IMG/VR virus record: IMGVR_UViG_2648501839_000008
DNA from: a virus
Lineage: Duplodnaviria; Heunggongvirae; Uroviricota; Caudoviricetes
DNA length: 64,000 bases
Reading direction: 5' to 3' (one strand)
The notes beneath the pieces were generated by a model that saw only the letters and a program-made list of their open reading frames with translations, did no database searches and was not told the origin of the DNA. Positions 35,379 to 63,208 of the stretch are shown here, in pieces. Every line of letters starts with the position of its first letter. Positions within the stretch are counted from its first letter, which is position 1. The position numbers and the translations under genes were made by a program.

Positions 35379-35417
35379 AGATCCCTCTAAAACACACAGA
35401 GCGCGTCCATGCGCTCT

Positions 35418-35475
35418 AAAACAACTTGTTTACTGCATTTTCTAACCAACTTGTTTTCTGGGTTGTTTAATTAGG
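35418..35475 (-). promoter_or_regulatory. Class-A palindromic sites (two) upstream of the packaging operon
   Basis: aaaacaacttgtttact and aaccaacttgttttct + ggttgtttaattagg. Confidence 0.5.
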
Positions 35476-41162: not shown

Positions 41163-41166
41163 TGAC

Positions 41167-44539: not shown

Positions 44540-44560
44540 GATTAATTCCTTATCGTAAAT

Positions 44561-44593
44561 AACAAATTGTTTTCTTGTTTGTGTTAATTATCG
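44561..44593 (-). promoter_or_regulatory. Class-A site (palindrome plus extended -10-like element)
   Basis: aacaaattgttttct + gtgttaattatcg. Confidence 0.5.
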
Positions 44594-45031: not shown

Positions 45032-45044
45032 ATCCTCACTGCGT

Positions 45045-45110
45045 AAACATGTTGTTTTCTTGTTGTTGTAATTATCGCAGCGAGATAAAGGCAGAAAACA
45101 AATTGTTATC
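45045..45110 (-). promoter_or_regulatory. Class-A sites (two palindromes flanking TGCGATAATTA)
   Basis: aaacatgttgttttct + tgttgtaattatcgca + gaaaacaaattgttatc. Confidence 0.5.
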
Positions 45111-45987: not shown

Positions 45988-45997
45988 CACAACTCCG

Positions 45998-46040
45998 TAA
46001 ACAACTTGTTTTCTCAATGGCGTAAATAATACCAGTAAGA
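45998..46040 (-). promoter_or_regulatory. Class-A site
   Basis: taaacaacttgttttct. Confidence 0.5.
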
Positions 46041-46470: not shown

Positions 46471-46482
46471 AAAGCAATCCTT

Positions 46483-46520
46483 AAACAACATGTTTTCTTG
46501 ATGGTGTTATTATCGCAATA
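46483..46520 (-). promoter_or_regulatory. Class-A site
   Basis: aaacaacatgttttct + gatggtgttattatcgcaat (TGcGATAAT on the minus strand). Confidence 0.5.
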
Positions 46521-49683: not shown

Positions 49684-49695
49684 TTCAACCACTCC

Positions 49696-49762
49696 GAAAC
49701 AATTTGTTTTCTTATGTGGCTTATTATCTCAATCAACAAAAGGTAGAAAACAAATTGTTTTA
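49696..49762 (-). promoter_or_regulatory. Class-A sites (two palindromes)
   Basis: gaaacaatttgttttct ... ttattatctc ... gaaaacaaattgtttta. Confidence 0.5.
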
Positions 49763-49845: not shown

Positions 49846-51879
49846 TTACTTAACCTGGTGGCCAGGTTTAGCACCAGCATCCGGGCTTAACAGGAAGATA
49901 TCTTTCCCGCCGGGGCCAGCAGCCATCACCATACCTTCGGAGATGCCGAAGCGCATCTTACGCGGAGCCAGGTTAGCCACCATAATGGTGTGACGACCAA
50001 TCAGTGCCTGTGGGTCTGGATAAGCAGAACGGATGCCTGAGAAGACATTGCGTTTTTCACCGCCGAGATCCAGCGTCAGGCGCAGCAGTTTGTCAGAACC
50101 TTCAACAAACTCTGCGTTTTCGATCAGTGCCACGCGCAGGTCAACTTTGGCAAAGTCGTCAAAGGTGATGGTTTCCTGAATCGGGTCGTCTGCCAGCGGG
50201 CCAGTAACTGGCGCGGCAGTAGCTTTCACTTCTTCTTTAGACGCTTCCACCAATGCTTCCACCTGTTTCATGTCGATACGGTTATACAGTGCTTTGAACG
50301 GATTCACTTTATGGCCCAGCAGCGGTTGCTGGATGCCATCCCAGGTCAGTTCCGTATTCAGGAATGCTTCCGCACGTTCTGTCAGTTTCGGCAGTACCGG
50401 TTTCAGGTAAGTCATCAGCACGCGGAACAGGTTGATGCCCATTGAGCAAATCGCCTGCAGGTCAGCATCGCGACCTTCCTGTTTTGCGACTACCCAAGGA
50501 GCCTGCTCGTCGACATAGCGGTTAGCCAGGTCAGCCAGTGCCATGATTTCACGGATAGCTTTACCAAATTCGCGGCTTTCCCACGCTTCACCAATCACTT
50601 CAGCGGCATCAGTGAAGGTTTTGTACAACTGCGGGTCAGCCAGCTCGCTTGCCAGCACACCGTCAAAACGCTTATTGATAAAGCCAGCGTTACGGGACGC
50701 CAGGTTAACCACTTTGTTCACGATATCGGCATTCACACGCTGAACGAAATCCTCCAGGTTGAGATCGATATCATCAATGCGCGAAGAGAGTTTCGCAGTG
50801 TAGTAGTAACGCAGGCTGTCAGCGTCAAAATGATTCAACCAGGTGCTGGCTTTAATAAAGGTGCCGCGAGACTTGGACATCTTCGCGCCGTTCACCGTCA
50901 CATAGCCGTGAACAAACAGGTTGGTCGGCTTGCGGAAGTTGCTGCCTTCCAGCATGGCAGGCCAGAACAGGCTGTGGAAGTAAACGATATCTTTACCGAT
51001 GAAGTGGTACAGCTCGGCGGTGGAGTCTTTCTTCCAGTATTCATCGAAGCTGGTAGTGTCGCCGCGCTTGTCGCACAGATTCTTGAAGGAACCCATGTAG
51101 CCAATCGGTGCGTCCAGCCAGACGTAGAAATATTTACCCGGCGCGTTCGGAATTTCAAAACCGAAGTAAGGTGCGTCGCGGGAGATATCCCACTGTTGCA
51201 GACCAGATTCAAACCACTCCTGCATTTTGTTTGCCACCTGCTCCTGCAACGCACCGCTGCGGGTCCATGCCTGCAACATTTCGCTGAAAGAGGGCAGATC
51301 AAAGAAGAAGTGTTCAGAATCACGCATTACCGGGGTAGCACCAGAAACCACCGATTTCGGCTCGATCAGTTCAGTCGGGCTGTAGGTCGCGCCGCAAACT
51401 TCACAGTTATCGCCGTATTGATCTGGCGCTTTACATTTCGGGCAGGTGCCTTTCACAAAACGATCCGGCAGGAACATGCCTTTTTCCGGGTCGTACAACT
51501 GAGAGATAGTGCGATTTTTAATAAAACCGTTCTCTTTCAGGCGAGTATAGATAAGCTCAGACAACTGACGGTTCTCTTCGCTGTGCGTCGAGTGATAGTT
51601 GTCATAGCTGATGTTAAAGCCTGCGAAATCAGTCTGGTGTTCCTGACTCATTTCGCCAATCATCTGCTCCGGTGTGATACCAAGTTGCTGTGCTTTCAGC
51701 ATGATCGGCGTACCGTGGGCATCGTCGGCACAGATGAAATTAACCTCGTGGCCGCGCATTCGCTGGTAACGAACCCAGACATCAGCCTGGATGTGCTCCA
51801 GCATATGGCCGAGGTGGATTGAGCCGTTAGCGTACGGCAGCGCGCACGTCACCAGAATTTTCTTCGCGACTTGGGTCAT
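49846..51879 (-). CDS. metG: Methionyl-tRNA synthetase
   Basis: 677-aa translation from [26 protein letters not shown] (HIGH-type motif) through KMSKS to the C-terminal tRNA-binding domain; enterobacterial MetRS; true ATG at 51877-51879 (track ORF extended upstream). Confidence 0.95.
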
Positions 51880-52036
51880 AGTAGGCATTACTTCTTTGTA
51901 GTGAAAAGGGGCTTGATAGTAACAAAATGGCCTTATGTCTGCCATGTGATAACAGCATTTCTCATAAATGATTAAATGTCGCAGCTGGAGTACACTACAA
52001 GGCGACAATTGCGCAAATTAAAATAAAGGAGACGGG

Positions 52037-53137
52037 ATGAGCGAGTCCAAATCGCCGGATGCCCTGAGAGCAATGGTAGCCGGTACGCTGGCTAATTTTC
52101 AGCACCCAACCCTGAAACACAACCTGACTACGCTTAAAGCGTTACACCATGTTGCGTTGATGGATGACACACTGCATGTCGAACTAATCATGCCTTTCGT
52201 GTGGAATAAGCCTTTTGAAGACCTGAAAGAGCAATGTAGTGGTGATCTGCTCCGTATCACTGGCGCAAAGGCTATTGACTGGAAGCTGTCGTACAACATT
52301 GCCACGCTTAAGCGCGTCAAAAACCAACCAGGCATTAATGGTGTTAAGAATATTATCGCCGTAAGCTCAGGCAAGGGCGGTGTAGGCAAATCGTCCACAG
52401 CAGTAAACTTGGCACTGGCTTTGGCTGCTGAAGGTGCGAAAGTTGGTATTTTGGATGCCGATATCTATGGTCCATCAATTCCAACCATGCTGGGCGCGGA
52501 AAACCAACGTCCAACCTCACCTGACGGTACTCACATGGCACCTATCATGTCTCATGGCCTGGCAACCAACTCTATTGGTTATCTGGTCACCGACGACAAT
52601 GCAATGGTGTGGCGTGGACCGATGGCCAGCAAGGCGCTGATGCAGATGTTGCAGGAAACTCTATGGCCTGATCTGGACTATCTCGTTCTCGATATGCCGC
52701 CGGGCACTGGTGATATTCAGTTGACGCTGGCGCAGAACATTCCTGTAACTGGTGCGGTTGTGGTAACTACGCCGCAAGACATCGCGCTGATCGATGCGAA
52801 GAAAGGCATTGTGATGTTCGAAAAAGTCGAAGTGCCGGTACTAGGTATCGTCGAAAACATGAGTGTGCATATTTGCAGTAACTGCGGTCATCACGAGCCA
52901 ATTTTTGGCACCGGTGGCGCACAGAAACTGGCCGAGAAATACAACACGCAGTTGTTAGGCCAAATGCCACTTCATATCTCTCTTCGTGAAGATCTGGATA
53001 ACGGAACACCAACCGTTATTAGTCGTCCAGATAGCGAATTTACGGCTATTTATCGTGACCTCGCAGATCGCGTTGCTGCCCAAATGTATTGGCAAGGTGA
53101 AGTAATACCTGGCGAAATCGCATTCCGCGCAGTGTGA
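52037..53137 (+). CDS. apbC: Fe-S cluster carrier ATPase ApbC/Mrp
   Basis: Deviant Walker A SGKGGVGKSS, CxxC motif ...HICSNCGHH..., divergent from metG as in enterobacterial chromosomes; RBS AAGGAG. Confidence 0.9.
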   Translation: MSESKSPDALRAMVAGTLANFQHPTLKHNLTTLKALHHVALMDDTLHVELIMPFVWNKPFEDLKEQCSGDLLRITGAKAIDWKLSYNIATLKRVKNQPGINGVKNIIAVSSGKGGVGKSSTAVNLALALAAEGAKVGILDADIYGPSIPTMLGAENQRPTSPDGTHMAPIMSHGLATNSIGYLVTDDNAMVWRGPMASKALMQMLQETLWPDLDYLVLDMPPGTGDIQLTLAQNIPVTGAVVVTTPQDIALIDAKKGIVMFEKVEVPVLGIVENMSVHICSNCGHHEPIFGTGGAQKLAEKYNTQLLGQMPLHISLREDLDNGTPTVISRPDSEFTAIYRDLADRVAAQMYWQGEVIPGEIAFRAV

Positions 53138-53174
53138 TAAAAAGGTGGTGCAATGCACCACCTAAACAGTTCTC

Positions 53175-53564
53175 CTACATCACAGGACAATCATCAAACT
53201 CGCCACTTCTTGCGTCGTTGATAATGTGAGTGATCACACCAAACACGGCATTGCTGCCCGTGCATCCATCATCATCCTTTGGCAATGCTTCCTTCTTACC
53301 AGTTCTTAAATCCTCCAGATGCTGACGTGGATACTTCCGGTATCTTTTTACGCGATATTCCCCATCCAGAGCACATACAAGAAGAGATCCATCAACAGGA
53401 GTCAGTGAGGAATCGACCACCAGCAATGCACCCTGCAATATTCCCTCACGATGATGACTATCAGCCGCCCTCATGAAGTAGGTCGCTGAAGGATGTCTAA
53501 TTATCTGCTGATCAAGAGAAATACGGCTCTCAGCATAATCCGCCGCAGGAGAAGGGAAGCCCAT
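53175..53564 (-). CDS. UmuD-like (LexA/S24 peptidase family) protein
   Basis: C-terminal domain aligns with the UmuD/LexA catalytic core (Ser in ...AADSHH..., Lys in ...RVKRYRK...); SOS box immediately upstream. Confidence 0.65.
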   Translation of the reverse strand: MGFPSPAADYAESRISLDQQIIRHPSATYFMRAADSHHREGILQGALLVVDSSLTPVDGSLLVCALDGEYRVKRYRKYPRQHLEDLRTGKKEALPKDDDGCTGSNAVFGVITHIINDARSGEFDDCPVM

Positions 53565-53580
53565 AATACTCGCCTCTTAA

Positions 53581-53600
53581 TACTGTATATGCATACAGTA
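53581..53600. promoter_or_regulatory. LexA (SOS) box
   Basis: TACTGTATATGCATACAGTA = CTGT-N8-ACAG consensus, about 17 nt upstream of the UmuD-like start. Confidence 0.75.
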
Positions 53601-53894
53601 TATGTTGAAGCTATATATTTTTGAACTCTATCTCTTAAAAAAGATGTTAATAAGATGCTAACTATTGAAAGGCATAAATATATACAATTCCAACAAACGT
53701 TATTTTTAACAAATTTTTACTTCCCATTGACTTTCCCAGACTCCTTGTCTGAACTAATGTCCGCGGAAACCACTTTTTCCTTTACGAGTTATCCACAAAG
53801 TTATGCACTTGCACATAGTCTCTATAAATCCTATCTTAATTCGCAAGACACTGATGTTGCGGTATTGTGGGTACATTTGGTTAAAAACGGACAT

Positions 53895-53928
53895 TAAAAA
53901 AGCCCAGTTGACTAGGCTGGGCTTTTTA
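53895..53928. terminator. Bidirectional rho-independent terminator
   Basis: AAAAAAGCCCAG...CTGGGCTTTTT. Confidence 0.6.
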
Positions 53929-53959
53929 AAAGGAAACAGAGTTTGCGCCTCTGTTCCTG

Positions 53960-54157
53960 AGCCATAAGTATCTGGCGACTGAGCTAAGATTAACCGAATG
54001 TACTGGATTCATCAAGAAACGTTGAGCCGTCATGCTAGGTAATAATGACCATTTACCAAACATCGTTGTTCTCAAAGAAGATTTAAGTCCAGGTTTTTGG
54101 TGACTCTAAAACCTTACCTTAACTCGAAATCGTGCCGTAAGTATCTGGCGACTACAG
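53960..54157. repeat. Direct repeats (gtaagtatctggcgact x2; aaatcgtgccg x2) in a noncoding region
   Basis: Copies at 53965/54136 and 54126/54246. Confidence 0.5.
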
Positions 54158-54325
54158 ATATTGCAACTGCAAAGGCAAGCTCAAAGGTATTTGCAGCTAG
54201 GTGCGATAAAACTAAGTGAGGCCTATAGTGCTTAACTTACTTTTCAAAATCGTGCCGCCTATGTTCGCAATCATCGAAGCGATCATTGAGTACGTCAACC
54301 AGCGCCCATAATGCTAGTTGTTACC

Positions 54326-54350
54326 GGCCCCATCCAAATGGGGCCATTTT
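54326..54350 (+). terminator. Hairpin terminator
   Basis: GGCCCCATCCAAATGGGGCC followed by ATTTTATT. Confidence 0.5.
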
Positions 54351-54360
54351 ATTGTATTGA

Positions 54361-55032
54361 CTACATACTTTCTGATCTAATTGAGTTGTTCACTGCTCTG
54401 GCAATTTTCTCCCGCAATTGCTGCGTTCCGTGGTACTGAACCGCAATATCCCGCAACTCATTCACCAGTTCTCTAATCTGGTGATCTTTAAGCTCATTAT
54501 TTGGGTGATGGGCAACAACTCTGGTTAATTCACCCTTGTCTTTTGCTCTTACGTATGCAGCTCTTGTGCATTCGACCCATGTATTACCGCCTACATTAAC
54601 TTCGTAGATTAGGCTGGACTTATCTGTCAATTCGGAACAAATACGGGCCGTGGTCTGGCAACTAGAGCATTCGCAGTTATCGCGGAAACCGTGATCTACT
54701 GGCTTCGGTTTCACATCATCAACTTTTTCTACCCTATCGGAATTTAAATACTTCGAAGCCTTGCTATGCCAATCGCTGGTTTTAGGATCTTGTCCATCCA
54801 TCAAACGCCAGGCTTCAGCGATTAACTCATAACTAGTGACTGTAGCTTCCTGCGCATCACCAATAAGTCGTGTAATCTCTCTTTCAAGCCGACCGCCTAA
54901 CTCCGTTTTAGTGCAATGTTCTGACCAATCGCCAGCCTCAAGAAGCGCGAGAATGCTTAAAATATCGTCCAATAGAACGGTAGTATTATCGACTTCCTTC
55001 TGAAACTCACCGGCTACTGATTTATGCATCAT
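54361..55032 (-). CDS. Hypothetical protein (223 aa)
   Basis: ORF track; last gene of a coupled nine-gene operon. Confidence 0.4.
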   Translation of the reverse strand: MMHKSVAGEFQKEVDNTTVLLDDILSILALLEAGDWSEHCTKTELGGRLEREITRLIGDAQEATVTSYELIAEAWRLMDGQDPKTSDWHSKASKYLNSDRVEKVDDVKPKPVDHGFRDNCECSSCQTTARICSELTDKSSLIYEVNVGGNTWVECTRAAYVRAKDKGELTRVVAHHPNNELKDHQIRELVNELRDIAVQYHGTQQLREKIARAVNNSIRSESM

Positions 55033-55682
55033 TCGTCATCCTCATCCGAGTCATCCTCATCACAGGATGAGAGTAGTGGGTTAGTCATTCGCCCTACTTG
55101 AGTGGCGTAGCCACGCCGACAGAGATTGCGCAGCACACTGTATATTTCGAACATCTCGGTTCGTTCATCGCCAACATCAAGCTCAGATGCTATAGCGTGG
55201 CATTCAGTCGCGAGAGCCGATATTTTCTGAAATAACTCTGCATTATTCACTGTTCGACTCCTGCGGCGTTCTGGTAGTGGCATCCAGTGTGTGACATTGC
55301 TAATCAGACCATATTCATTAGTTTGAGGATGGTTGCCGTTATCGTCTCCGTATTTAAGACTCTCCATAAAGCCATAATGCCTATTACCATTAACGCTCAC
55401 AAAGCCGTAATAAGCAGGTATAACGCCGATCTCACACGTAACCAGTAAAGGAAAACTAGTTCTCCAATTTAGCTCGCCAATTACAGGCATTCGCTCACTA
55501 CAGCTTATCCAACCATCCTTAGATGCGGCTGTATTGGCATAGGCCTTACGGTGCTTCTGTAGCTCTGCTGCAATCGCTCTCACGACTTCAACTGGTGCCC
55601 TTGCAGCAAACTCAATGTTGGTGATCAGCTCATTAAGATATTTCTCGCTTGGGTAGCATTTCTTATTGTTAACGGTGGTCAT
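55029..55682 (-). CDS. Hypothetical prophage protein (DUF551-like WMPLPE motif, acidic C-terminal tail)
   Basis: ORF track; motif recognition only. Confidence 0.4.
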   Translation of the reverse strand: MTTVNNKKCYPSEKYLNELITNIEFAARAPVEVVRAIAAELQKHRKAYANTAASKDGWISCSERMPVIGELNWRTSFPLLVTCEIGVIPAYYGFVSVNGNRHYGFMESLKYGDDNGNHPQTNEYGLISNVTHWMPLPERRRSRTVNNAELFQKISALATECHAIASELDVGDERTEMFEIYSVLRNLCRRGYATQVGRMTNPLLSSCDEDDSDEDDE

Positions 55683-55867
55683 TAGGCAGCTCTCTCAACA
55701 ACAAGCAATTCGTCGTAGTCATAATCAGTTTCGGAACCATCCGTACCGAACAGAGTCACTTTGTCATTTTCCATCCAAAAAGATTTAACCGCACATTGTT
55801 GACCTTTAGATGTTATGAGCACATCACCAGGGATTACGTCTTCAGCGCGAACCTCTAGTGTTCTCAT
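55682..55867 (-). CDS. Small hypothetical protein (61 aa)
   Basis: ORF track; coupled overlaps on both sides. Confidence 0.3.
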
Positions 55868-56745
55868 CGTGCTGCCCCCTCTTTGGTGAAAATACCTGCT
55901 GCAATGCTGTTTATGATGCTGTCAGTGCATGGAGTAGAAAGCTGGGCATCTCCAGCAATTTTCATGACCTCAACATCCGCATATCGAATACCGAGGTGTA
56001 TCAGACCGGCTATACCTGACTTAAGTCGAACATTTTCCATAAACAGATCTTTTTCCCGCTGTTTAGCGGCTTCCAACTCCATCGACAATTTTTCCAACTG
56101 CTCTTTATGCTTCTTGTATTCCTGATACGCGTGCCAAGACTGACCTTTGCGCACACTATCAGTGATATCAGCAACCTGCTCTGGTGTTAGCGTGGTCAGT
56201 GGCTGTGATGGAAAAATCATCACTTGCCCGGCATCCCAATCAAAACCCGCCTTAATTGACTGAACCTCAACTGATGGTGTTGAACCGATGCGACCAGGCG
56301 AATGAACAACGATCGTTACATCCATATCGCGACGATGGCTGTGGTTGTTGGACAAAATACGATTCACCAACTCAGAAAATTTGGATAATTTCATGCTGAT
56401 CCCTCTTTCTCTCCCCGGATAATTCTGTTGCACACATCCACACTCGTCGCAGATGAAAACGGCGTCCCCAGCAATTAACTTTTTGACGGCGTACTGGGAT
56501 TTGTTGCAGAAGCTGCAACAAAGTGTTCGCCTGACTGATAAGGATGGAGCGCCAGATGTCAGCCGCTCCATATCGTTCTTGCGACGCAATATCACACGGC
56601 TGAACTCAACCAGTTTCTCCGGGGATATCTCCTCCTCCGTAGCGAGCGTCTCTAGTCGTTCGAGTATGTTGAAGGCTTTTTCTTGGTAATAGCAGAGTGC
56701 GATGTGGTCATTTTCTTTCACCTTCAATGTTCGTGGCGCTGGCAA
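55864..56745 (-). CDS. Protein with ClpX-type C4 zinc ribbon
   Basis: ...[29 protein letters not shown]... resembles the ClpX N-terminal zinc-binding domain. Confidence 0.4.
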
Positions 56746-57109
56746 GATTGTCCTTGCGAAGAAGAGCGGCTATGCGCTTACTTCCATCCGAGATAACGCC
56801 CTCGTAATACTCACGCTGCTCGTTGAGTTTTGATTTTGCCAACTCCAGTTGTTTTGTTAGTTCCGCAATACGGCAAACATCGTTGATACGCGTTTCCTCT
56901 AATGCGTTGATCTCATCCAGTAGTGCCAGCACGGTTTCTGGTCCGGCCAGAAATTTGAAGGCGTTGAGGGCATCAATATCAACACCGCTATCTTTAAGTT
57001 CCTGTTCGCTTATCAGATCATCATCAACTGGCAACATTAACAGGCGTTCCATTGCCGGAATTGCACGCTCTGCCGCCTCACGCAGTGCCTGATAGTCAAT
57101 CTTGCTCAC
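56708..57109 (-). CDS. Hypothetical coiled-coil protein (133 aa)
   Basis: ORF track. Confidence 0.35.
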
Positions 57110-57606
57110 TGGATGACTCCTTTACGAAGCTGTTCAGCAATACTTACGCATATCTCTGCGCCTCTAATCAGCCCCGGAACGTTCTTGTTTGGCCCAACTT
57201 CACCATCAACAAAATCAATCATCGCGTTACGAGCCATATCCACGCCCTGCGCACGTACTTCAGCCAGAAAAGCATCGGTGGCTGGAGTCTCCGTTAATTC
57301 GCTAACCCAATTATCTCCGTGTTCCTCGGCACACATCGCATCGAATGCTCGCTCAGATTCTTTCAGGGCTGCATTCTCCGCCGCTAATGCGTCTCTCTGC
57401 GCTCGCAACTTCTCAATTTCGGCAGCCATGTAGTAACCAACCATAGCGAAAGTGGCGAAAGGGTAGTCAGAATCATCAGGAGATACGGAGGCCATTAGCA
57501 GACCATCGTGCATGTTCTGGCTTCCATCAGTGATGGATACCGCATAAGAATCGCTGGTTTCCCGTTTATACAATACGACGACCGGGTTCTTGATTTTCTC
57601 TCTCAT
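57106..57606 (-). CDS. Hypothetical protein (166 aa)
   Basis: ORF track. Confidence 0.35.
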   Translation of the reverse strand: MREKIKNPVVVLYKRETSDSYAVSITDGSQNMHDGLLMASVSPDDSDYPFATFAMVGYYMAAEIEKLRAQRDALAAENAALKESERAFDAMCAEEHGDNWVSELTETPATDAFLAEVRAQGVDMARNAMIDFVDGEVGPNKNVPGLIRGAEICVSIAEQLRKGVIQ

Positions 57607-58160
57607 TACGATGCCTCTAACTTATCTAACTCTTTCAGCCCTTCACGTACCGCGTTCACAATGCGTTCCAGATACTGGTATTTCGGGTTTGGTACCGTTG
57701 GCCAGTCGGCATACCACGGATCATCACCAAAGAGATTCAGCAGTTTGTTACCGACGCCGAAACAACAGCAGCTTTCTTTTACGTCATCGGCGTTTTCCGC
57801 CTCGTCCCACATTTCACGAGCCAGTACGGCGTCGATTTCTCTCTCTCTTCGTAACTTTATGATTTCTGACTTCACGAAAAGCAGATTTGCATCGTTGTCA
57901 TCGTCGACCGTGCTTCGCAGTTGAGAGTCGAAATAGCCGATTAGATACTCGTTGCTGACCCGCTTAATGAACGTCTGCACATCATCACCGCCCATAGCAA
58001 ACCAAGCCGCAGTCCACGCTTTTCCGTAGCAGATGATGGTGATTCTTCCCTTACCAGGTTCGTAGTTTTCAATCATTACTCGAACCGGATCGAGGCGTTC
58101 CAGATCCGTCAGCACAAAGGAAAGAACATCTATTTTTTCGACCTTCATGCAGCCTCCCAC
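57606..58160 (-). CDS. Hypothetical protein (184 aa)
   Basis: ORF track. Confidence 0.35.
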   Translation of the reverse strand: MGGCMKVEKIDVLSFVLTDLERLDPVRVMIENYEPGKGRITIICYGKAWTAAWFAMGGDDVQTFIKRVSNEYLIGYFDSQLRSTVDDDNDANLLFVKSEIIKLRREREIDAVLAREMWDEAENADDVKESCCCFGVGNKLLNLFGDDPWYADWPTVPNPKYQYLERIVNAVREGLKELDKLEAS

Positions 58161-58786
58161 GCGCTCCAGATCAGCGATTTGTGTTTTTCATAACGTTTGA
58201 TGTGTACCGGTTTCAGAAGCGCAATACCTTCAGTGACTTTCGCCATTGCGCTTAATAGCAACGGGTGTTCTATTCCTATCCTCTCCATGTACTCGACAAC
58301 ATCAGCGTTGGCACCAATCTCTTTGCCGTGAAAGAGTACGTCCAGCATCAGTTCTTTCTCTGCGAGGTAGACAGCTGAAAACTCGGGATCGCGACTCACG
58401 ATAGAAGAGGTATTGTCGAGCAGGTCAGCCAGCTTGATCATGCGCGTCTGCATGTCGAGATTTTGCTCCAGCTCCAGGACATTGATGATGAAACGCTGTA
58501 TTCGATTGCCGTCTTCTGGCCTTGCAATGTTGGTCAGAGCCTGAACCATTTCAGCTACGCGCTCACCGAAGTGATCACGAACCATCTCTATGGTTACATG
58601 GGTGTCTTCGACCACATCATGCAGAAGCGCCGCGATTTGCATCTCCACGGTTCCGTCATGCAATGCAACAATCTCTCGGACAGCAACCGGGTGGTTGATG
58701 TAGTCTTCGCCGGTATATTTTCTTTTCTGACCAACGCCACCATGAGCGCCAGCGGCGAACATATGAGCTTCGGAAATACTAGACAT
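58145..58786 (-). CDS. HD-domain hydrolase, SpoT/RelA-hydrolase-like (small alarmone hydrolase candidate)
   Basis: ...HPVAVREIVALHDGTVEMQIAALLHDVVEDT... matches the HD motif arrangement of (p)ppGpp hydrolase domains. Confidence 0.55.
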   Translation of the reverse strand: MSSISEAHMFAAGAHGGVGQKRKYTGEDYINHPVAVREIVALHDGTVEMQIAALLHDVVEDTHVTIEMVRDHFGERVAEMVQALTNIARPEDGNRIQRFIINVLELEQNLDMQTRMIKLADLLDNTSSIVSRDPEFSAVYLAEKELMLDVLFHGKEIGANADVVEYMERIGIEHPLLLSAMAKVTEGIALLKPVHIKRYEKHKSLIWSAWEAA

Positions 58787-58795
58787 TCTTAACTC

Positions 58796-58854
58796 CGTTG
58801 TTTTCTAGTTGTGGTTATTTTCACAAATAAGAAAAGGTAGAAAACAATTTATTT
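58796..58854 (-). promoter_or_regulatory. Class-A sites upstream of the nine-gene early operon
   Basis: ccgttgttttct + gttgtggttattttcac + gaaaacaatttattt. Confidence 0.5.
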
Positions 58855-58905
58855 AAGGCCACAACTTATGGCCTTTATTTATTCATGCCGAAGGATTTGT
58901 AGCGT

Positions 58906-59286
58906 CTAATTGCCGGATAAAATGGGGTGAGGTGCTTGCCAGTAGGCTCCACCGGTCCATGTGAACCCCATGCGAATAAGAGTGTTTATTGCGGCTTTGG
59001 TAGACTCCGATTCGACACTGGCTTTTCGAAACTCTTGAACCTCTTTCGCCAACTTGTATGTAATTGTGCAGGGGACGATTGCAGCCCAGCCTTTCTCATG
59101 ACTGTTAATGACCATCTGGATGTGACCATCCAGAATAGGTTGATTAGGCATGTTATTGAAAATGTCTGCCTGTTTTTGAATGTGAAGAAAAAGCCTTGCC
59201 AGCTCCATTTGCTCACTACGAGACAAGGGATTATCAAGAGGGCTTTTTGCAAAAGCGGCTATACGCTGTGCGTCAATGCCAAACAT
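58906..59286 (-). CDS. Hypothetical protein (126 aa)
   Basis: ORF track. Confidence 0.35.
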   Translation of the reverse strand: MFGIDAQRIAAFAKSPLDNPLSRSEQMELARLFLHIQKQADIFNNMPNQPILDGHIQMVINSHEKGWAAIVPCTITYKLAKEVQEFRKASVESESTKAAINTLIRMGFTWTGGAYWQAPHPILSGN

Positions 59287-59990
59287 CAGCGCACCTCACC
59301 ATCTTTATGGCTGGAGTTAACTTCCGCCATTAAATGTCTGACGTAATCGACAAGAGAGCCACCTGGTGGAATCTGGCATTCCTCAACTAACTGGAAGTAG
59401 ATATCCGCTGCATTACGTGTATTGCTACCCGCACATATTCTTTCTTCCCGAAGTGCATGAAGCTCGTTGATCAAACGGTCACACTCTCCGTTACGCTGAT
59501 CCACAACGGCCTCAAGCTCTGCGACGCGTTCACCTGGCGTCTTACCTTCTTTGCGTTGGATGGTAACGACGAAATCGCCAATTGCAGAGACGTTGTAATC
59601 CAGCTCAAGGTAGTTTTTGGCACCGCTGCGGACGAACTCACCCGCGAACATGGTGGCGAACATCGCAGAGGCCACTTCGCCGTTGAAAAGTGACTCAAGA
59701 TCTAACGGAGTCCCGGCAGCAAGAGCCTCTTTTGCTGTATCCATTGCATCCATGAACCGATCAAACTCACTAGCGCGCTTTTCCAGGTCTTTCCATTGCT
59801 CGCTCCAACGTTTGGCAACGAAGTCTATGAATGTTTTCGCGGATTCATCAAAATTCCCCTCAAACTTAACGATGCCTTTATCAATAATGATCTGGCCTAC
59901 CGCATCCTCTGCATAACCTTTCAATGTAAACTTGAAAGGAAAATCAGAATGGCCTGTGACGTTAAAATGCTCTAACTGGAGGTTGTTCAT
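59286..59990 (-). CDS. Hypothetical protein (234 aa)
   Basis: ORF track. Confidence 0.35.
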   Translation of the reverse strand: MNNLQLEHFNVTGHSDFPFKFTLKGYAEDAVGQIIIDKGIVKFEGNFDESAKTFIDFVAKRWSEQWKDLEKRASEFDRFMDAMDTAKEALAAGTPLDLESLFNGEVASAMFATMFAGEFVRSGAKNYLELDYNVSAIGDFVVTIQRKEGKTPGERVAELEAVVDQRNGECDRLINELHALREERICAGSNTRNAADIYFQLVEECQIPPGGSLVDYVRHLMAEVNSSHKDGEVR

Positions 59991-60032
59991 GTGTTTTTCT
60001 CTTATCGTTTAGCCACTAAATTCTTACACAAA

Positions 60033-60053
60033 TTAAGTAAGTATTTACCTATC
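60033..60053 (-). promoter_or_regulatory. Class-B palindromic site
   Basis: ttaagtaagtatttacctatc. Confidence 0.4.
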
Positions 60054-61737
60054 ATTTAACGCGTTTGAAAACGTATACGCTGACTGTGATCCCTGTGTCT
60101 TCAAACTCGTTGGTAAACGACTTCCCTCTGGCATAAACGTAATTATCCATCGTCATCCAGTCCAGTATTGGCGCAGTGCCCGGCAATACTGCTACAAGAC
60201 GCCCGCCGACTTTCAGATGCCCCAGCGCAGCCATCGTGTGCTCTCTATGACGACCAAGCGAGTACGGCGGGTTCATAACGATTTTGTCGAACTGATAACC
60301 TGCGTTGTCCTCAGACCACTTTATGAAGTCGCAGCAAATCGTGTTCGTATACCCTTTTCCACGCAGGATATCAGCGAAGAGAGGTGCGATTTCTATGCAG
60401 GTAACATCTTCCAGATCGGCGTTAATATAGGCCAGAAGATCCCCACGTCCGGCTTGAGGCTCCAGCAGCTTCTCACCAGACTTCAATTCAGTGGCTCTGG
60501 CAACGTACTCAGCAATCAAGCGTGGGGTAGGGTAGAACTGGTGTGATTTAGTATCCGGTATTAAACCGGTAGCCACAATCGTATTTAGCGTATGGCCGAT
60601 GTCATACGGGAACTGCCAGTGCTTTTTCTCCTGCACGCCGCCAATGAAGCTCAGTGTGCGCTCAAGCTCTTCCACCTGCGACTTCTGGAGAGCTGAATCA
60701 GAGAAGTACCATACGCCTTTGTCTTTGCTCAATCGCCCGTCACGAAGCGCAGTGCGAACCGGCACAGAGATCGTCTTCTGGATTAACCCGAACTGCTTTG
60801 GTGCCCGTGTTTTTGGCGCAGTTCGGCATGGCGCGGGGATTGCAGCAGGCATACTGTAAGCCAGCACCTCATTCAACTTCCAGGCCACGTCAGGATGTAT
60901 TTCAAAGTGAACGTTGCCGTTCTTGAACATCTTCACGCGCATCAGATTTCCATCGACGTTCATCCAGTCACCGGTCTGGCAGTCGTTTGCCCTATACGCA
61001 GCTGATAGCACCTCAGCAGTGCGGTTGATGGTAATAAATTCTTTGTGCGCGAAGAAATGAAGCAAGACACGCAGATCGTCGATGTAGTCCTCTTTGCGAT
61101 AGTTCACGCTAACGCTGTCCCGCCAGAAATCAGAAATGCAGTCAGCGATTATCAGCCGCTCGCTGAAACCGTTTGTCTTATTTGTCTTGTGCGCAGGACT
61201 CAGCGCCTTAAACAAGCCATACACGCGCTCAGAGAGATATTTGTGCCTGTCATTCAGCAAATTAAGCATCGTGGGTATGACCGTTTCTGCTTTGAACTCC
61301 GGTACACCAACGAACTCTTTAACCTTCATCTGGTAGCCGGTTCTGTCAGTTTTGATGACTTCCTGTTTGCCCTCTATAAACTGCTCGCGCCACTCATCTC
61401 GACGGGAAGCTGGCATGATCAGCAAAACGTTAGTCATGTCCGTGACCTTCCTCCAGTACTCGGCCCAAATATTCTGTTTCACCCATTCCAGATCGACTTT
61501 ATCCAACCAACCTCGATTTAAACGCGAGCGATCTTCATCTGGTCGATGGTTTAGTCTCAGCAGGCGATTAATCATGTTGTGGCGTTCGTCGCCATAAACG
61601 AAGTCGTGTACCTGATACATGAAGGCGATCTCTTTCTCGCACTCGGCCACGATTTCGTGGATGACATTCATTTCCTGACGATAGTCGATAGCCGTGTTTG
61701 AGCTGGCATCGTCGATGATAGAAAGGGCTGTATTCAT
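60052..61737 (-). CDS. N6-adenine DNA methyltransferase with large N-terminal domain
   Basis: Motif I-like LEPQAGRGDLL and motif IV NPPY in the C-terminal about 200 aa; 561 aa. Confidence 0.65.
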   Translation of the reverse strand: MNTALSIIDDASSNTAIDYRQEMNVIHEIVAECEKEIAFMYQVHDFVYGDERHNMINRLLRLNHRPDEDRSRLNRGWLDKVDLEWVKQNIWAEYWRKVTDMTNVLLIMPASRRDEWREQFIEGKQEVIKTDRTGYQMKVKEFVGVPEFKAETVIPTMLNLLNDRHKYLSERVYGLFKALSPAHKTNKTNGFSERLIIADCISDFWRDSVSVNYRKEDYIDDLRVLLHFFAHKEFITINRTAEVLSAAYRANDCQTGDWMNVDGNLMRVKMFKNGNVHFEIHPDVAWKLNEVLAYSMPAAIPAPCRTAPKTRAPKQFGLIQKTISVPVRTALRDGRLSKDKGVWYFSDSALQKSQVEELERTLSFIGGVQEKKHWQFPYDIGHTLNTIVATGLIPDTKSHQFYPTPRLIAEYVARATELKSGEKLLEPQAGRGDLLAYINADLEDVTCIEIAPLFADILRGKGYTNTICCDFIKWSEDNAGYQFDKIVMNPPYSLGRHREHTMAALGHLKVGGRLVAVLPGTAPILDWMTMDNYVYARGKSFTNEFEDTGITVSVYVFKRVK

Positions 61738-61750
61738 AATTACACCATTA

Positions 61751-61784
61751 AATAATTTGTTTTCTGATTGGTGTAATTATCGCA
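61751..61784 (-). promoter_or_regulatory. Class-A site
   Basis: aataatttgttttct + gtgtaattatcgca (TGCGATAAT on the minus strand). Confidence 0.5.
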
Positions 61785-61839
61785 AACTTGAAAAGGCATA
61801 AAAGCTGCATTCATAGGCGTTACAGCAGATTTAAGGCGT

Positions 61840-61861
61840 AAAAATGGGGGCTTTCGCCCCC
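61840..61861 (-). terminator. Rho-independent terminator (minus strand)
   Basis: GGGGGCGAAAGCCCCC followed by ATTTTT on the minus strand. Confidence 0.6.
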
Positions 61862-61878
61862 TGTCGACTGGTGCAGTA

Positions 61879-62445
61879 TTAGAGTGCGTATTGCGTTTTG
61901 TGCGGCTGCTTATTCAAGTCATGGCGATGCGTGAGCTCCCGCATCATGTCTTCAAGGCGACTCTTTGTGTCGTCGAGCTGGTCGGCCATTGCACCTAAAA
62001 GCTGGCGAACGGCCATCGGATCGTCGCTGTTTAGTGATGGCATTTTATAACCTGCTTTAGAAGACATAAGGTTGATTGCAGACATCAACATCGTTAGAGA
62101 GGATTTAAGCCCGGCAATTTCACGATCTTTGCTGGCAATAATCGTCTCACTTTTGTTACCGTCATCAGTTCCTTGAGTCTCGCTCACCATATCCAAAGTC
62201 GCTTGCAACTTATCAGCTCTCTCTTTTTCAGCAAGGTAATGAACACCGAAATGGTGTGCCAAAGCTACAATCTGAGTTGGCTCTTCAAAGGTGGAATTAA
62301 AATTAAGTATTGTAAACAGTCTCTCAAATATGGAAACGTCTTCTATTCCTCGAAGAATGGATAACATTTTGACAAGTTCATTAGCATCCATTTCTTCGAA
62401 TAGGGCGTTTTGTTCATCAGCTATTGCTTTGCATTTCTCGCACAT
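61879..62445 (-). CDS. Hypothetical protein (188 aa)
   Basis: ORF track. Confidence 0.35.
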   Translation of the reverse strand: MCEKCKAIADEQNALFEEMDANELVKMLSILRGIEDVSIFERLFTILNFNSTFEEPTQIVALAHHFGVHYLAEKERADKLQATLDMVSETQGTDDGNKSETIIASKDREIAGLKSSLTMLMSAINLMSSKAGYKMPSLNSDDPMAVRQLLGAMADQLDDTKSRLEDMMRELTHRHDLNKQPHKTQYAL

Positions 62446-62463
62446 GTGTTTTCCTTAATGCTT

Positions 62464-62499
62464 AAACAAGTTGTTTTCTTATTGGTTTTATTGTGATGT
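62464..62499 (-). promoter_or_regulatory. Class-A site
   Basis: aaacaagttgttttct + ttggttttattgtgatg. Confidence 0.5.
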
Positions 62500-62584
62500 G
62501 GCATATAAGGGGAGCAAGCTAAACGTAAAGGTGCAAACTCTCTATTTCGGTCAACGAAACACAAGGGCCAAATGGCCCTTGTCA

Positions 62585-63168: not shown

Positions 63169-63191
63169 GTGTTTTCCTTTTGTTATTTGTC

Positions 63192-63208
63192 AAAACAAGT
63201 TGTTTTCT
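63192..63208 (-). promoter_or_regulatory. Class-A site
   Basis: aaaacaagttgttttct. Confidence 0.5.

What the first reader, a model, noticed from the sequence alone, without database searches (positions are those of the whole stretch)
54361..58854. Nine-gene early operon with back-to-back overlapping reading frames
Every junction from 58786 down to 54361 is a 1-38 nt overlap, with a single class-A promoter cluster upstream and a terminator downstream. Most products are unassigned, apart from the HD hydrolase, the ClpX-zinc-ribbon protein and a DUF551-like protein, making this a dense block of probable host-takeover or anti-defence genes.
Basis: seen in the sequence. Interest (0 to 1): 0.35.

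Follow-up and report, generated by a model that had tools for sequence, protein, structure and literature searches.

The report
Mosaic accessory-gene operon of a phage-plasmid
This is an ordinary, tightly packed string of small accessory genes in a well-sampled E. coli phage-plasmid (SSU5/pSLy3 type); only its first gene has a tested role, through an 87%-identical relative that disarms "toxSAS" anti-phage toxins.

Summary
The window is part of a ~110-kb SSU5-supergroup phage-plasmid. The 9.4 kb around the finding is 99.9% identical to E. coli plasmids already in RefSeq. The chain of overlapping reading frames is real, but this sequence has eight ORFs, not nine. Two private slippage deletions break the ClpX-zinc-finger gene and fuse it in frame to the next ORF. 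Intact relatives have nine ORFs joined by eight ATGA/GTGA/TAATG overlaps.

The "class-A promoter cluster" is also real. An extended -10 (TGtGAAAAT) is bracketed by two copies of an 18-nt palindromic motif, which occurs 19 times in the window against about 1 expected. None lies inside the block. The downstream "terminator" is a hairpin whose T-run is on the other strand. The first canonical same-strand terminator is 440 nt further on.

The HD protein is 87% identical to SSU5 PaSpo, a small alarmone hydrolase shown to neutralise toxSAS toxins. That supports an anti-defence reading for this one gene. The rest are lambda/P22 "ea"/exo-xis-type mosaic proteins of untested function, mostly under purifying selection. 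The homologous block in phage-plasmid Cyrano is silent in lysogens, except for the last gene or two.

Verdict: a new member of a known kind, of low interest.

The parts
58855..58875 (-). Hairpin between the upstream MTase-234aa-126aa genes and the block. Probably a leaky or bidirectional terminator of the upstream unit.
   Evidence: The terminator scan flags it with its T-run on the plus strand. Folding gives -12.1 kcal/mol, z = -2.9. One stem pair covaries among relatives (T:G, C:G, T:A).
58839..58856 (+). Upstream copy of the palindromic 18-nt motif (AGAAAACAATTTATTTAA), centred near -38. Putative operator.
   Evidence: Exact match to the motif. It pairs as an inverted repeat with 58788-58820. 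It is conserved in SSU5, Cyrano and four E. coli plasmids.
58817..58825 (-). Extended -10 element TGtGAAAAT of the block's promoter. The start site near 58810 is inferred.
   Evidence: Read directly from the sequence. The same TGnGATAAT-N10-motif architecture occurs at 44558, 45043, 46481, 49695 and 61748. A lenient sigma-70 score gives 5.81. It is invariant in relatives, and recombination breakpoints sit just after it, at 58812-58815.
58789..58806 (-). Downstream copy of the motif (AGAAAACAACGGAGTTAA). Its left half is intact. Its right half is replaced by the HD gene's Shine-Dalgarno GGAG.
58145..58786 (-). HD-domain small alarmone hydrolase (213 aa), orthologue of SSU5 PaSpo.
   Evidence: Pfam HD_4, E = 3.4e-17. 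It is 87% identical over all 213 aa to SSU5_099. It aligns to Rel/SpoT/MESH1 hydrolase domains, and the query carries YINHP, LLHDVVEDT and KLADLLDN at those positions. pN/pS is 0.07-0.23.
57606..58148 (-). 180-aa Eae-like / 'phiTE_072' / PF26211 protein of unknown function.
   Evidence: phrog_3451. It is 87% identical to SSU5_100. The ATGA overlap and GGGAGG SD are shown. There are 190 homologues in Enterobacterales prophages. The AF2 model has pLDDT 76, no PDB fold match, and only uncharacterised phage proteins in BFVD. pN/pS is 0.13-0.28.
57106..57606 (-). 166-aa coiled-coil Ead/Ea22-type protein ('phage EaE' in UniRef).
   Evidence: phrog_492, 368 and 614. The exact sequence is on 928 contigs. 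pN/pS is 0.09-0.23.
56708..57109 (-). 133-aa truncated Ead/Ea22-like ORF. PGAP annotates it as a pseudogene lacking its C-terminus.
   Evidence: Pfam Ead_Ea22, E = 1.3e-22. PGAP note. The intact 240-aa version is in p4_0.2. The exact 133-aa ORF is nevertheless on 938 contigs.
56391..56711 (-). ClpX zinc-binding-domain mimic gene (107 aa in relatives). Here it is broken by a 1-nt deletion at 56684 and a 2-nt deletion at 56438.
   Evidence: indels, frames. Pfam zf-C4_ClpX. The intact homologue is 29/41 identical to E. coli ClpX ZBD by sequence. It superposes at 0.6 A over 38 residues at 74% identity.
55864..56745 (-). 293-aa ORF as it stands in this window: out-of-frame leader, then zinc finger, then the 176-aa Ea22-like protein.
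   Evidence: The fusion is not in the 15-billion-protein collection. The deletions are absent from all 59 complete E. coli genomes carrying the gene.
55864..56394 (-). 176-aa protein with a phrog_6026 N-domain and an Ea22-type coiled coil. It is a separate gene in relatives.
   Evidence: pN/pS is 0.17-0.44.
55682..55867 (-). 61-aa protein (phrog_15283), unknown function.
   Evidence: ATGA overlap.
55029..55682 (-). 217-aa chimeric ORF: phrog_6847 N-fragment (1-49), partial DUF551 (57-138), and a complete phrog_4220 73-aa protein (145-217; 55029-55250).
   Evidence: PGAP splits it into a DUF551 pseudogene and a 73-aa gene. The exact 217-aa ORF is on 174 contigs.
54361..55032 (-). 223-aa modular protein. 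Residues 1-106 form a conserved module that is joined to different C-terminal modules in relatives. It is truncated relative to 284-aa versions.
   Evidence: The breakpoint at 54383 is seen against pEC881_2. pN/pS is 0.05-0.23.
54326..54345 (.). GC-rich hairpin just after the last stop codon. The T-run is on the plus strand only. It is not conserved as an operon end: pEC881_2 continues with a toprim-domain gene.
53901..53918 (-). First canonical minus-strand intrinsic terminator downstream of the block (stem followed by TTTTTTAAT).
   Evidence: -14.6 kcal/mol, z = -3.65.

Best explanation
What it is. The block is the promoter-distal, recombination-plastic accessory-gene operon of an SSU5-supergroup (pSLy3-like) E. 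coli phage-plasmid.

Shown.
- The ORFs form an unbroken minus-strand chain. Each start codon overlaps the previous stop (ATGA, GTGA or TAATG), with a Shine-Dalgarno inside the preceding ORF.
- Immediately upstream sits an extended -10 (TGtGAAAAT) bracketed by two inverted copies of an 18-nt palindromic motif. That motif marks at least 15 other gene-proximal sites in the window and is absent from the block interior.
- The first ORF is an 87%-identical orthologue of SSU5 PaSpo.
- The remaining ORFs belong to lambda/P22 'ea'/exo-xis-type families and are a patchwork shared in 30-350-nt pieces with about 400 lambdoid and P22-like phages.
- Most ORFs are under purifying selection.

Inferred.
- The motif copies are operators of a phage-plasmid repressor, centred near -38 and +14, about five helical turns apart.
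- They keep the promoter shut in the plasmid state.
- On derepression or infection, one leftward polycistronic mRNA is made and the ORFs are translated by coupling.
- PaSpo then degrades (p)ppGpp/(p)ppApp and removes the 3'-pyrophosphate that toxSAS defence toxins add to tRNA. This blunts the stringent response and abortive infection.
- The other products are host- or decision-modulating proteins, like those of the lambda exo-xis region. One of them, in intact relatives, is a near-copy of the host ClpX zinc-binding domain and could act as a ClpX decoy.
- The cassette content is reshuffled by recombination at gene boundaries and coiled-coil segments.
For: - Identity of the element: 99.9% to 111.7-kb E. 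coli plasmids; synteny with SSU5 and Cyrano.
- ORF chain, overlaps and Shine-Dalgarno sites.
- Motif enrichment: 19 against 1.07 expected for the 18-mer, and 17 against 1.3 for the 9-mer.
- Fixed -10/N10/motif architecture, with paired copies at three promoters.
- The promoter module is conserved from SSU5 to E. coli plasmids. Recombination breakpoints lie exactly after the -10 in relatives that lack HD.
- The motif is also present at the SSU5 HD and MTase promoters.
- There is no motif inside the block, and no internal minus-strand terminator better than 5-bp stems of -5 to -9 kcal/mol.
- Cyrano homologues CYRAN_90-95 give 5.5-10 normalised counts in lysogens, the same as structural genes.
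- PaSpo: 87% identity. It neutralises CapRel, FaRel, FaRel2, PhRel and PhRel2 (PMC7229694) and removes the tRNA modification (bioRxiv 10.1101/2024.07.05.602228). The query carries the HD..ED, D and N segments where it aligns to Rel/MESH1 hydrolase domains.
- Mosaicism.
- pN/pS of 0.05-0.28 for HD, p180, p166 and p223.
- ClpX-ZBD mimicry.
Against: - The generic promoter scan does not call the site, and there is no good -35. The promoter rests on an extended -10 plus recurrence and conservation, not on a mapped start site.
- No binder for the motif was identified among 20 window ORFs scanned with Pfam and 10 of them with PHROGs. The motif also precedes the terminase and a ParA-like gene, so it is not specific to early genes.
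- The hairpin after the last ORF lacks a U-tract on the coding strand.
- The hairpin upstream of the promoter is also a weak terminator on this strand, so read-through from the MTase promoter is possible.
- In Cyrano the last two homologues are expressed above the rest: 14 and 32 against about 6 in LB, and log2 8.0 against 2.6 in condition B6. This suggests an internal promoter.
- The Cyrano data are per-gene counts from a relative that lacks the HD gene. No induction time course was available.
- Seven of the eight ORFs have no tested function.
- The zinc-finger gene is disrupted in this sequence.
Confidence: 0.7

Rival explanations
1. The block is not an independent unit. It is the tail of a longer leftward transcript that starts at the DUF4942 methyltransferase promoter (about 61.78 kb) or further upstream. 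The 58875-58855 hairpin acts only as an attenuator.
For: All genes from at least 63.9 kb down to 54.36 kb are on the same strand with short gaps. The 58875-58855 hairpin has no contiguous U-tract on the minus strand. The MTase promoter has the same architecture (TGcGATAAT-N10-motif) and follows a strong terminator at 61861-61846.
Against: A complete promoter/operator module sits directly upstream of HD. It is conserved even where the downstream gene differs. The hairpin stem shows a covarying pair, which suggests it is functional. The two readings are not mutually exclusive.
Confidence: 0.3
2. The block is two units. An internal promoter inside the DUF551 remnant drives the 73-aa and 223-aa ORFs at a low level in the plasmid state (moron-like). 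Only the proximal genes are strictly lytic.
For: Cyrano per-gene counts step up from CYRAN_93-95 (5.5-8.3) to CYRAN_96 (14) and CYRAN_97 (32). In condition B6 the log2 values are 2.6-3.3, then 5.4, then 8.0. PGAP annotates the 73-aa protein as a gene of its own. There is a weak candidate, TTGTGA-17-CATTAT, at 55402-55374.
Against: The candidate promoter is no better than chance-level hits. The generic scan finds no minus-strand promoter inside the block, and overall finds 8 sites against 15 expected in shuffles. The absolute expression is still low, below the authors' moron cut-off. The data come from a relative, not from this element.
Confidence: 0.35
3. The distal ORFs are non-functional recombination debris (pseudogene fragments that happen to stay open), so the 'operon' is mostly junk behind one useful gene.
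For: PGAP marks the Ea22-like and DUF551 parts as incomplete pseudogenes. The 217-aa and 223-aa ORFs are chimeras or truncations. The content varies greatly among relatives, and in pR9-658-1 it is interrupted by ISEcp1-blaCTX-M-15. The zinc-finger gene is broken here.
Against: pN/pS is well below 1 for HD, p180, p166 and p223. Every junction keeps a start/stop overlap and an SD. The exact ORF products recur on hundreds of contigs.
Confidence: 0.1

Closest known systems
Salmonella phage SSU5 locus SSU5_095-SSU5_100, including PaSpo (SSU5_099)
   Same: The gene order is the same: DUF4942 methyltransferase, 234-aa protein, Eaa-like protein, hairpin, promoter module, HD hydrolase, 180-aa protein. 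Identity is 87% aa for both HD and p180. The palindromic motif pair is the same.
   Different: Downstream of the 180-aa gene, SSU5 carries unrelated genes (LprI-like, YdfZ-like, DUF1380). The window instead has Ea22-like, zinc-finger and DUF551 cassettes.
Lambda exo-xis region and P22 'ea' region (ea22, ea8.5, orf60a-63, eaA-eaI): early-left accessory genes of lambdoid phages
   Same: Same protein families: Pfam Ead_Ea22, with Eaa-, Eae- and Ea22-like names given by annotators, plus DUF551. Small coupled ORFs behind a repressor-controlled promoter. Extreme mosaicism. Short patches of >90% nt identity shared with about 400 lambdoid and P22-like phages. Literature: PMC7093339, PMC10834534, PMC3824215.
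   Different: The block sits in a phage-plasmid, not between int/xis and exo of an integrating prophage. There is no N-antitermination context. It carries a small alarmone hydrolase. None of these particular ORFs has been tested. There is no sequence match to the solved lambda Ea22 domain in PDB searches.
Escherichia phage-plasmid Cyrano (pLF82) genes CYRAN_93-97, and pSLy3-group E. coli phage-plasmids
   Same: The flanks (metG-apbC-humD and the MTase) and the promoter module are the same. The last three ORFs are 96-100% identical. Transcriptome data exist for Cyrano lysogens.
   Different: Cyrano lacks HD, the zinc finger, p166 and p133. It has five genes where the window has eight. The ARG hot spot of this group lies here: ISEcp1-blaCTX-M-15 sits inside the block in pR9-658-1 (PMC9600943).
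P1 C1 repressor with dispersed operators
   Same: The logic is similar by analogy: one short sequence repeated at many promoters scattered over a phage-plasmid genome, sometimes in pairs. That P1 C1 has many dispersed operators is from my own knowledge.
   Different: The motif here is palindromic (AAACAA-n-TTGTTT) and unrelated in sequence to the asymmetric 17-bp C1 operator (from my own knowledge). No binding protein has been identified. One copy plus the hairpin occurs in a P1-like genome.

Membership tests
Small alarmone hydrolase (RSH hydrolase-only), PaSpo subfamily | HD_4 / RelA-SpoT hydrolase domain | tested here: met
   PF13328, E = 3.4e-17. TIGR00691 gives a partial match to residues 7-130. 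PDB hits are to Rel, SpoT, MESH1 and SAH hydrolases.
Small alarmone hydrolase (RSH hydrolase-only), PaSpo subfamily | Catalytic and metal-binding motifs (H..HD..ED..D..N) intact | tested here: met
   The alignments to Rel/SpoT-type hydrolase domains and MESH1 (3NR1) cover YINHP, LLHDVVEDT and KLADLLDN in the query. Assigning these segments to the catalytic motifs is from my own knowledge of the family.
Small alarmone hydrolase (RSH hydrolase-only), PaSpo subfamily | Close orthology to the tested protein (SSU5 PaSpo), single-domain, about 213 aa | tested here: met
   185/213 identical, no gaps, same length, same genomic position.
Small alarmone hydrolase (RSH hydrolase-only), PaSpo subfamily | Hydrolyses alarmones / neutralises toxSAS toxicity | not testable with these tools
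   Shown only for the SSU5 orthologue (PMC7229694; bioRxiv 10.1101/2024.07.05.602228).
Lambdoid exo-xis / P22 ea-region accessory genes | Ead/Ea22-family domain content | tested here: met
   PF13935, E = 1.3e-22, for the 133-aa ORF. phrog_368, 492 and 250 are shared by p166, p133 and p176.
Lambdoid exo-xis / P22 ea-region accessory genes | Location between int/xis and exo in the PL early-left operon of an integrating lambdoid prophage | tested here: not met
   The element is a circular 110-kb plasmid-prophage. The neighbours are humD, metG/apbC and a DUF4942 methyltransferase.
Lambdoid exo-xis / P22 ea-region accessory genes | Early, repressor-controlled transcription | tested here: inconclusive
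   There is an operator-like motif pair at the promoter, and the block is silent in Cyrano lysogens. No induction time course or TSS map was available.
   One conserved promoter module lies upstream and no motif copy lies inside. However, Cyrano counts rise for the last two genes.
   The hairpin at 54345-54326 is followed by GGUAACAAC on the minus strand, and its T-run is on the plus strand. The canonical terminator is at 53918-53901.
SSU5-supergroup phage-plasmids (pSLy3-like group) | Near-full-length similarity and synteny with known members that replicate as ~110-kb plasmids | tested here: met
   53 E. coli records cover at least 80% of the 9.4-kb query. The best hits are 110-113-kb plasmids. 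There is synteny with SSU5 and Cyrano.
Known anti-phage defence systems (PADLOC) | Match to any defence-system protein model | tested here: not met
   The only hit is a pAgo match at E = 0.0084 with no significant stretch.
ClpX N-terminal zinc-binding domain (as a free-standing mimic) | C4 treble-clef ZBD fold and sequence | tested here: met
   PF06689. The intact homologue is 29/41 identical to E. coli ClpX ZBD by sequence. The fold match is 0.6 A over 38 residues at 74% identity. In this window the last ZBD helix is lost to the frameshift.

The most novel reading that the evidence does not exclude
The intact form of this block may encode more than one new host-interference factor. In particular, the 107-aa protein is a helical hairpin fused to a near-copy of the host ClpX zinc-binding domain. 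It could be a decoy that titrates ClpX adaptors or substrates, or poisons ClpX N-domain dimers, protecting phage-plasmid proteins from ClpXP. I found no paper describing this. In addition, the block may be one member of a regulon of at least 15 promoters wired to a single palindromic operator (AAACAA-n-TTGTTT). That would be a P1-like dispersed immunity network, which I did not find described for SSU5-type phage-plasmids in the papers I read.
Probability: 0.3. Interest if true: 0.5.

Novelty: new member of a known kind. Interest (0 to 1): 0.2.

Why it matters
The finding itself matters little. The sequence is already in RefSeq many times over. The architecture is the standard coupled accessory-gene array of temperate phages. 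The one gene with a clear role has been tested in SSU5.

It does have three practical uses.
- It places a validated anti-toxSAS hydrolase as the first gene behind a repressor-type promoter in E. coli phage-plasmids, where it is gained and lost as a cassette.
- It marks the plastic locus where ISEcp1-blaCTX-M-15 has landed in clinical relatives.
- It supplies a short list of conserved, selected, uncharacterised ORFs for anti-defence or host-takeover screens: the PF26211 protein, the ClpX-ZBD mimic and the 223-aa modular protein.

The recurrent operator-like motif is probably the most useful by-product. It gives a testable handle on how SSU5-type phage-plasmids control their genes.

Tried and rejected
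- Rfam (E up to 1) on 53-64 kb: no RNA family.
- tRNA scan: none.
- PADLOC: no defence homology.
- NCBIfam: nothing beyond partial RelA/SpoT and ClpX matches.
- PDB sequence searches of p180, p166, p133, p217 and p223: nothing significant.
- AlphaFold2 plus Foldseek of p180: pLDDT 76, no PDB fold (best E = 0.046), only uncharacterised phage proteins in BFVD.
- Generic sigma-70 scan: no minus-strand hit at the promoter, and fewer hits overall than in shuffles. My own lenient scan found only weak internal candidates.
- Search for the motif-binding repressor (Pfam on 20 window ORFs, PHROGs on 10 of them): no HTH protein found.
- Moron or lysogenic-conversion reading of the whole block: rejected, because CYRAN_90-95 are at background in lysogens.
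- IHF site reading of the motif: considered by eye and rejected, because it does not fit the IHF consensus as I recall it.
- Sequencing error versus real mutation for the two deletions: could not be decided. The variants are private. Both fall in one 324-nt gene of an otherwise indel-free 9.4 kb.
- Literature searches for phage ClpX-ZBD mimics and for metG on pHCM2-type elements: nothing found.

Full report
CONTEXT. The window is not a lytic phage. It is a 64-kb piece of an SSU5-supergroup phage-plasmid of E. coli. The 9.4 kb around the finding (53100-62500) matches 111.7-kb circular E. coli plasmids at 99.9% identity, and 53 complete-genome records cover at least 80% of it. Among phage records the best matches are 'Escherichia phage CMS-2020a', PhiR41_1, Cyrano (pLF82) and, at 87% over part of the query, Salmonella phage SSU5. 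The PGAP annotation of a near-identical plasmid (L001) and the annotations of SSU5 and Cyrano give the neighbourhood. All genes below are on the minus strand except apbC. In order of transcription they are: RNase H, tciA/TerB, a 188-aa protein, a DUF4942 methyltransferase (60052-61737), a 234-aa protein, a 126-aa 'Eaa-like' protein, then the block, then an ~800-nt gene-poor stretch, then humD (53175-53564), and then, unexpectedly, apbC and metG.

OBSERVATION: ORFS AND JUNCTIONS. The ORF listing gives eight consecutive minus-strand ORFs from 58786 to 54361. Their junctions overlap by 16, 1, 4, 38, 4, 1 and 4 nt. The 16-nt overlap is an artefact of taking the longest ORF. The ATG at 58148 has a GGGAGG Shine-Dalgarno, is the start PGAP uses, and gives an ATGA overlap.

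Against L001, the window lacks one C of a CCC run (at 56684) and one TG of a (TG)3 run (at 56438). These are the only indels in 9.4 kb, and both fall inside the 324-nt ClpX-zinc-finger gene. The canonical ATG (56711, in an ATGA overlap with the 133-aa ORF) now stops after 19 codons. The finger lies in another frame that opens at a TTG (56745), which explains the '38-nt overlap', and that frame runs on into the 176-aa ORF.

The fused product, with any of four possible starts, is absent from a 15-billion-protein collection. The other seven products are exact matches on 6 to more than 1000 contigs. None of 59 complete E. coli genomes carrying the gene has the TG deletion, and no genome has a perfect match across the C deletion. 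So the fusion is private to this sequence. It is either a very recent double hit or an assembly error, and I could not decide which.

In intact relatives there are nine ORFs and eight junctions, every one ATGA, GTGA or TAATG. Every start except that of HD, which follows the promoter region, is preceded by an SD-like purine run inside the upstream ORF. In the rest of the element about 10 of 48 same-strand PGAP junctions overlap. The unbroken run is therefore more than chance, but it is the usual signature of translational coupling in phage accessory operons.

OBSERVATION: PROMOTER. The generic sigma-70 scan finds nothing on the minus strand between the 126-aa gene and HD. The repeat search showed that this 119-nt spacer shares a 31-56-nt module with the spacers upstream of the methyltransferase and the 188-aa gene. 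The core is an 18-mer, AGAAAACAAnTTGTTTAA, with a palindromic centre AAACAA-n-TTGTTT. It occurs 19 times (up to 2 mismatches) in the window against 1.07 expected, and 0 of 100 shuffles reach 19. The 9-mer occurs 17 times against 1.3 expected.

Laid out in register, the copies sit in intergenic DNA, mostly oriented with the downstream gene. In the clearest cases they lie exactly 10 nt after a -10-like hexamer, often with an extended TG (TGcGATAAT at 44558, 45043, 46481, 49695 and 61748; TGtGAAAAT at the HD gene). Three promoters, including this one, have a second, inverted copy about 33 nt upstream. The two palindromes are therefore centred near -38 and +14.

The module is conserved from SSU5 to the E. 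coli plasmids. SSU5 has the motif at its own HD and MTase promoters, and a P1-like genome carries one copy plus the hairpin. No copy lies inside 54361-58786. Its function as a repressor-controlled promoter is inferred, not shown.

OBSERVATION: TERMINATORS. The hairpin right after the last stop (54345-54326) is stable (-17.3 kcal/mol). On the coding strand it is followed by GGUAACAAC, and the T-run is on the opposite strand. It is also not a conserved operon end, because in pEC881_2 homology breaks at 54383 and a toprim-domain gene follows. The first canonical minus-strand terminator is at 53918-53901. Inside the block only two 5-bp stems are flagged (-8.7 and -5.4 kcal/mol), which is within chance expectation. 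Upstream, the 58875-58855 hairpin separates the block from the MTase unit. Its stem shows a covarying pair among relatives, but its U-tract on this strand is poor, so some read-through is possible.

WHAT THE GENES ARE.
- HD (213 aa). It matches Pfam HD_4 and aligns to Rel, SpoT, MESH1 and SAH hydrolase domains. The query carries YINHP, LLHDVVEDT and KLADLLDN at the aligned positions, which I read as the H..HD..ED..D..N motifs. It is 185/213 identical, without gaps, to SSU5_099. That protein is PaSpo, which neutralised all five toxSAS toxins tested (PMC7229694). It counteracts FaRel2 by removing the pyrophosphate placed on the tRNA 3' end (bioRxiv 10.1101/2024.07.05.602228).
- p180. It is 87% identical to SSU5_100 and belongs to PF26211 / 'phiTE_072' / Eae-like proteins, which are widespread in Enterobacterales prophages. 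An AlphaFold2 model (pLDDT 76) has no PDB fold match and only uncharacterised viral matches.
- p166, p133 and p176. These are Ead/Ea22-type coiled-coil proteins. p133 is a shortened version of a 240-aa protein that is intact in p4_0.2.
- The zinc-finger protein. In its intact 107-aa form it is a helical hairpin plus a domain that is 29/41 identical to the E. coli ClpX zinc-binding domain by sequence. The domain superposes on ClpX ZBD at 0.6 A over 38 residues at 74% identity.
- p217. It is a chimera of an N-fragment, a partial DUF551 and a complete 73-aa phrog_4220 protein. PGAP annotates it as a pseudogene plus a small gene.
- p223. It is modular. Residues 1-106 recur joined to many different C-terminal modules, and this copy is truncated relative to 284-aa versions.

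None of the ORFs matches a defence-system model.

MOSAICISM AND SELECTION. Relatives differ cassette by cassette:
- Cyrano lacks HD, p166, p133 and the zinc finger.
- pR9-658-1 lacks HD and p180 and has ISEcp1-blaCTX-M-15 inserted in the DUF551 region.
- p4_0.2 has an intact Ea22-like gene plus DUF7739.
- pEC881_2 has a full DUF551 gene and a toprim gene.
- SSU5 diverges completely after p180.

Breakpoints sit at the transcription start (58812-58815), at gene boundaries (57606, 56711) and inside coiled-coil segments. About 400 lambdoid and P22-like phages share 30-350-nt patches at more than 90% identity. This locus lies in the plastic region where ARGs were reported for the pSLy3 group, whose flanks are DUF3927 and tellurite-resistance genes (PMC9600943). 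Despite this, pN/pS is 0.05-0.28 for HD, p180, p166 and p223. It is 0.17-0.55, based on few substitutions, for p176 and p217. Most ORFs are therefore maintained as coding sequence.

EXPRESSION EVIDENCE FROM A RELATIVE. Supplementary Table S1 of PMC9928086 gives per-gene RNA-seq for Cyrano in LF82 lysogens. CYRAN_90-95, which run from the MTase through the 61-aa ORF homologue, have 5.5-10 normalised counts. That is the same as terminase and capsid genes. By contrast, the putative repressor has 96, humD has 148 and apbC has 92. The block is therefore not a set of lysogen-expressed morons, which is consistent with a repressed promoter. However, CYRAN_96 and CYRAN_97, the homologues of p217 and p223 at about 99% nt identity, have 14 and 32 counts. 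In condition B6 CYRAN_97 is at log2 8.0 against 2.6 for CYRAN_93. I found only a weak candidate (TTGTGA-17-CATTAT, 55402-55374).

MECHANISM, WITH STATUS.
- Shown: gene chain, overlaps, SDs, motif enrichment and architecture, conservation, PaSpo orthology, mosaicism, purifying selection, and silence of the proximal homologues in a lysogen of a relative.
- Inferred: the palindromes are operators of an unidentified repressor. Derepression gives one leftward polycistronic mRNA that is translated by coupling. PaSpo, as first product, lowers alarmone levels and reverses toxSAS tRNA modification. The Ea22-type proteins act like lambda exo-xis products on host physiology or the lysis-lysogeny decision (PMC7093339, PMC3824215). 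The ZBD mimic could interfere with ClpX.

Confidence in the overall picture is 0.7. The main uncertainties are whether the unit is strictly single-promoter and where it ends.

COMPARISON AND NOVELTY. The closest known systems are the SSU5 PaSpo locus, the lambda exo-xis and P22 ea regions, and the homologous Cyrano block. The block fails the positional definition of an exo-xis region, because there is no int/xis-exo context. It meets the family-content test and probably works similarly. The sequence is already in public databases many times, and the only functionally informative gene has been characterised in SSU5. I rate it a new member of a known kind, with interest 0.2. The most novel readings left open are a ClpX-ZBD decoy, other new effectors among the conserved ORFs, and a dispersed-operator regulon in SSU5-type phage-plasmids.

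Noticed in passing
window-wide; e.g. 1001-1018, 4757-4774, 35417-35459, 44558-44575, 45043-45110, 45997-46014, 46481-46498, 49695-49762, 58789-58856, 61748-61765, 62462-62479, 63191-63208: An 18-nt palindromic motif, AGAAAACAAnTTGTTTAA, occurs 19 times against about 1 expected. It is nearly always intergenic. In the clearest cases it lies 10 nt after a (TGn)GATAAT-like -10 and upstream of a gene, and three sites have an inverted second copy about 33 nt upstream. It looks like a dispersed operator or regulon signal of the phage-plasmid. It is also present in SSU5, and once in a P1-like genome. The binding protein was not identified.
   Followed up: partly
49846-52008 (-) and 52037-53137 (+): The phage-plasmid carries full-length chromosomal-type housekeeping genes, metG (methionyl-tRNA synthetase) and apbC/mrp. 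The E. coli relatives examined and Cyrano carry them too. In Cyrano lysogens apbC is expressed about 10-fold above background. Their origin and role were not examined.
   Followed up: partly
56438 and 56684: Two slippage-type deletions, (TG)3 to (TG)2 and CCC to CC, both fall inside the 324-nt ClpX-zinc-finger gene. The TG deletion is shared by none of the 59 complete E. coli genomes carrying the gene, and a 50-mer spanning the C deletion has no perfect match in any complete genome. The fused product is absent from 15 billion proteins. This is either a recent double inactivation or an assembly error.
   Followed up: yes
56391-56711 (intact form in relatives, e.g. L001 9292-9615): The free-standing 107-aa protein has a C-terminal domain that is a near-copy of the host ClpX zinc-binding domain (74% identity, 0.6 A). 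It is possibly a ClpX decoy. I found no literature on such phage proteins.
   Followed up: partly
53175-53564 (-), with a LexA box at 53581-53600: A humD (umuD-like S24 peptidase) gene has a perfect LexA box, TACTGTATGCATATACAGTA, over its promoter. It is shared with P1 at 84% nt identity. It is strongly expressed and inducible in Cyrano data.
   Followed up: partly
53565-54360: An ~800-nt gene-poor stretch lies between the block and humD. It has two 20-nt direct repeats (53961-53980 and 54134-54153) and a strong minus-strand terminator (53918-53901). There is no Rfam hit. It is replaced by other genes in pEC881_2. It could hold an unannotated small RNA or peptide, or be a remnant.
   Followed up: partly
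41089-41691 (+): An ORF gives a strong match to Pfam Flag1_repress (FljA, repressor of phase-1 flagellin; E = 2.5e-84). The phage-plasmid may modulate host flagellin expression.
   Followed up: no
L006 (pR9-658-1) 3889-6673, equivalent to window ~55150: In a clinical relative, ISEcp1-blaCTX-M-15 is inserted inside this block, in the DUF551 region. The block therefore lies in the ARG-acquisition hot spot of this phage-plasmid group.
   Followed up: partly
59286-59990 and 57606-58148: The N-terminus of the upstream 234-aa protein (residues 13-101) and the whole 180-aa protein match consecutive halves of one PHROG family (phrog_3451, 287 aa). This suggests that an ancestral gene was split, or that its halves were recombined around the Eaa-like gene, the promoter and the HD cassette.
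   Followed up: no
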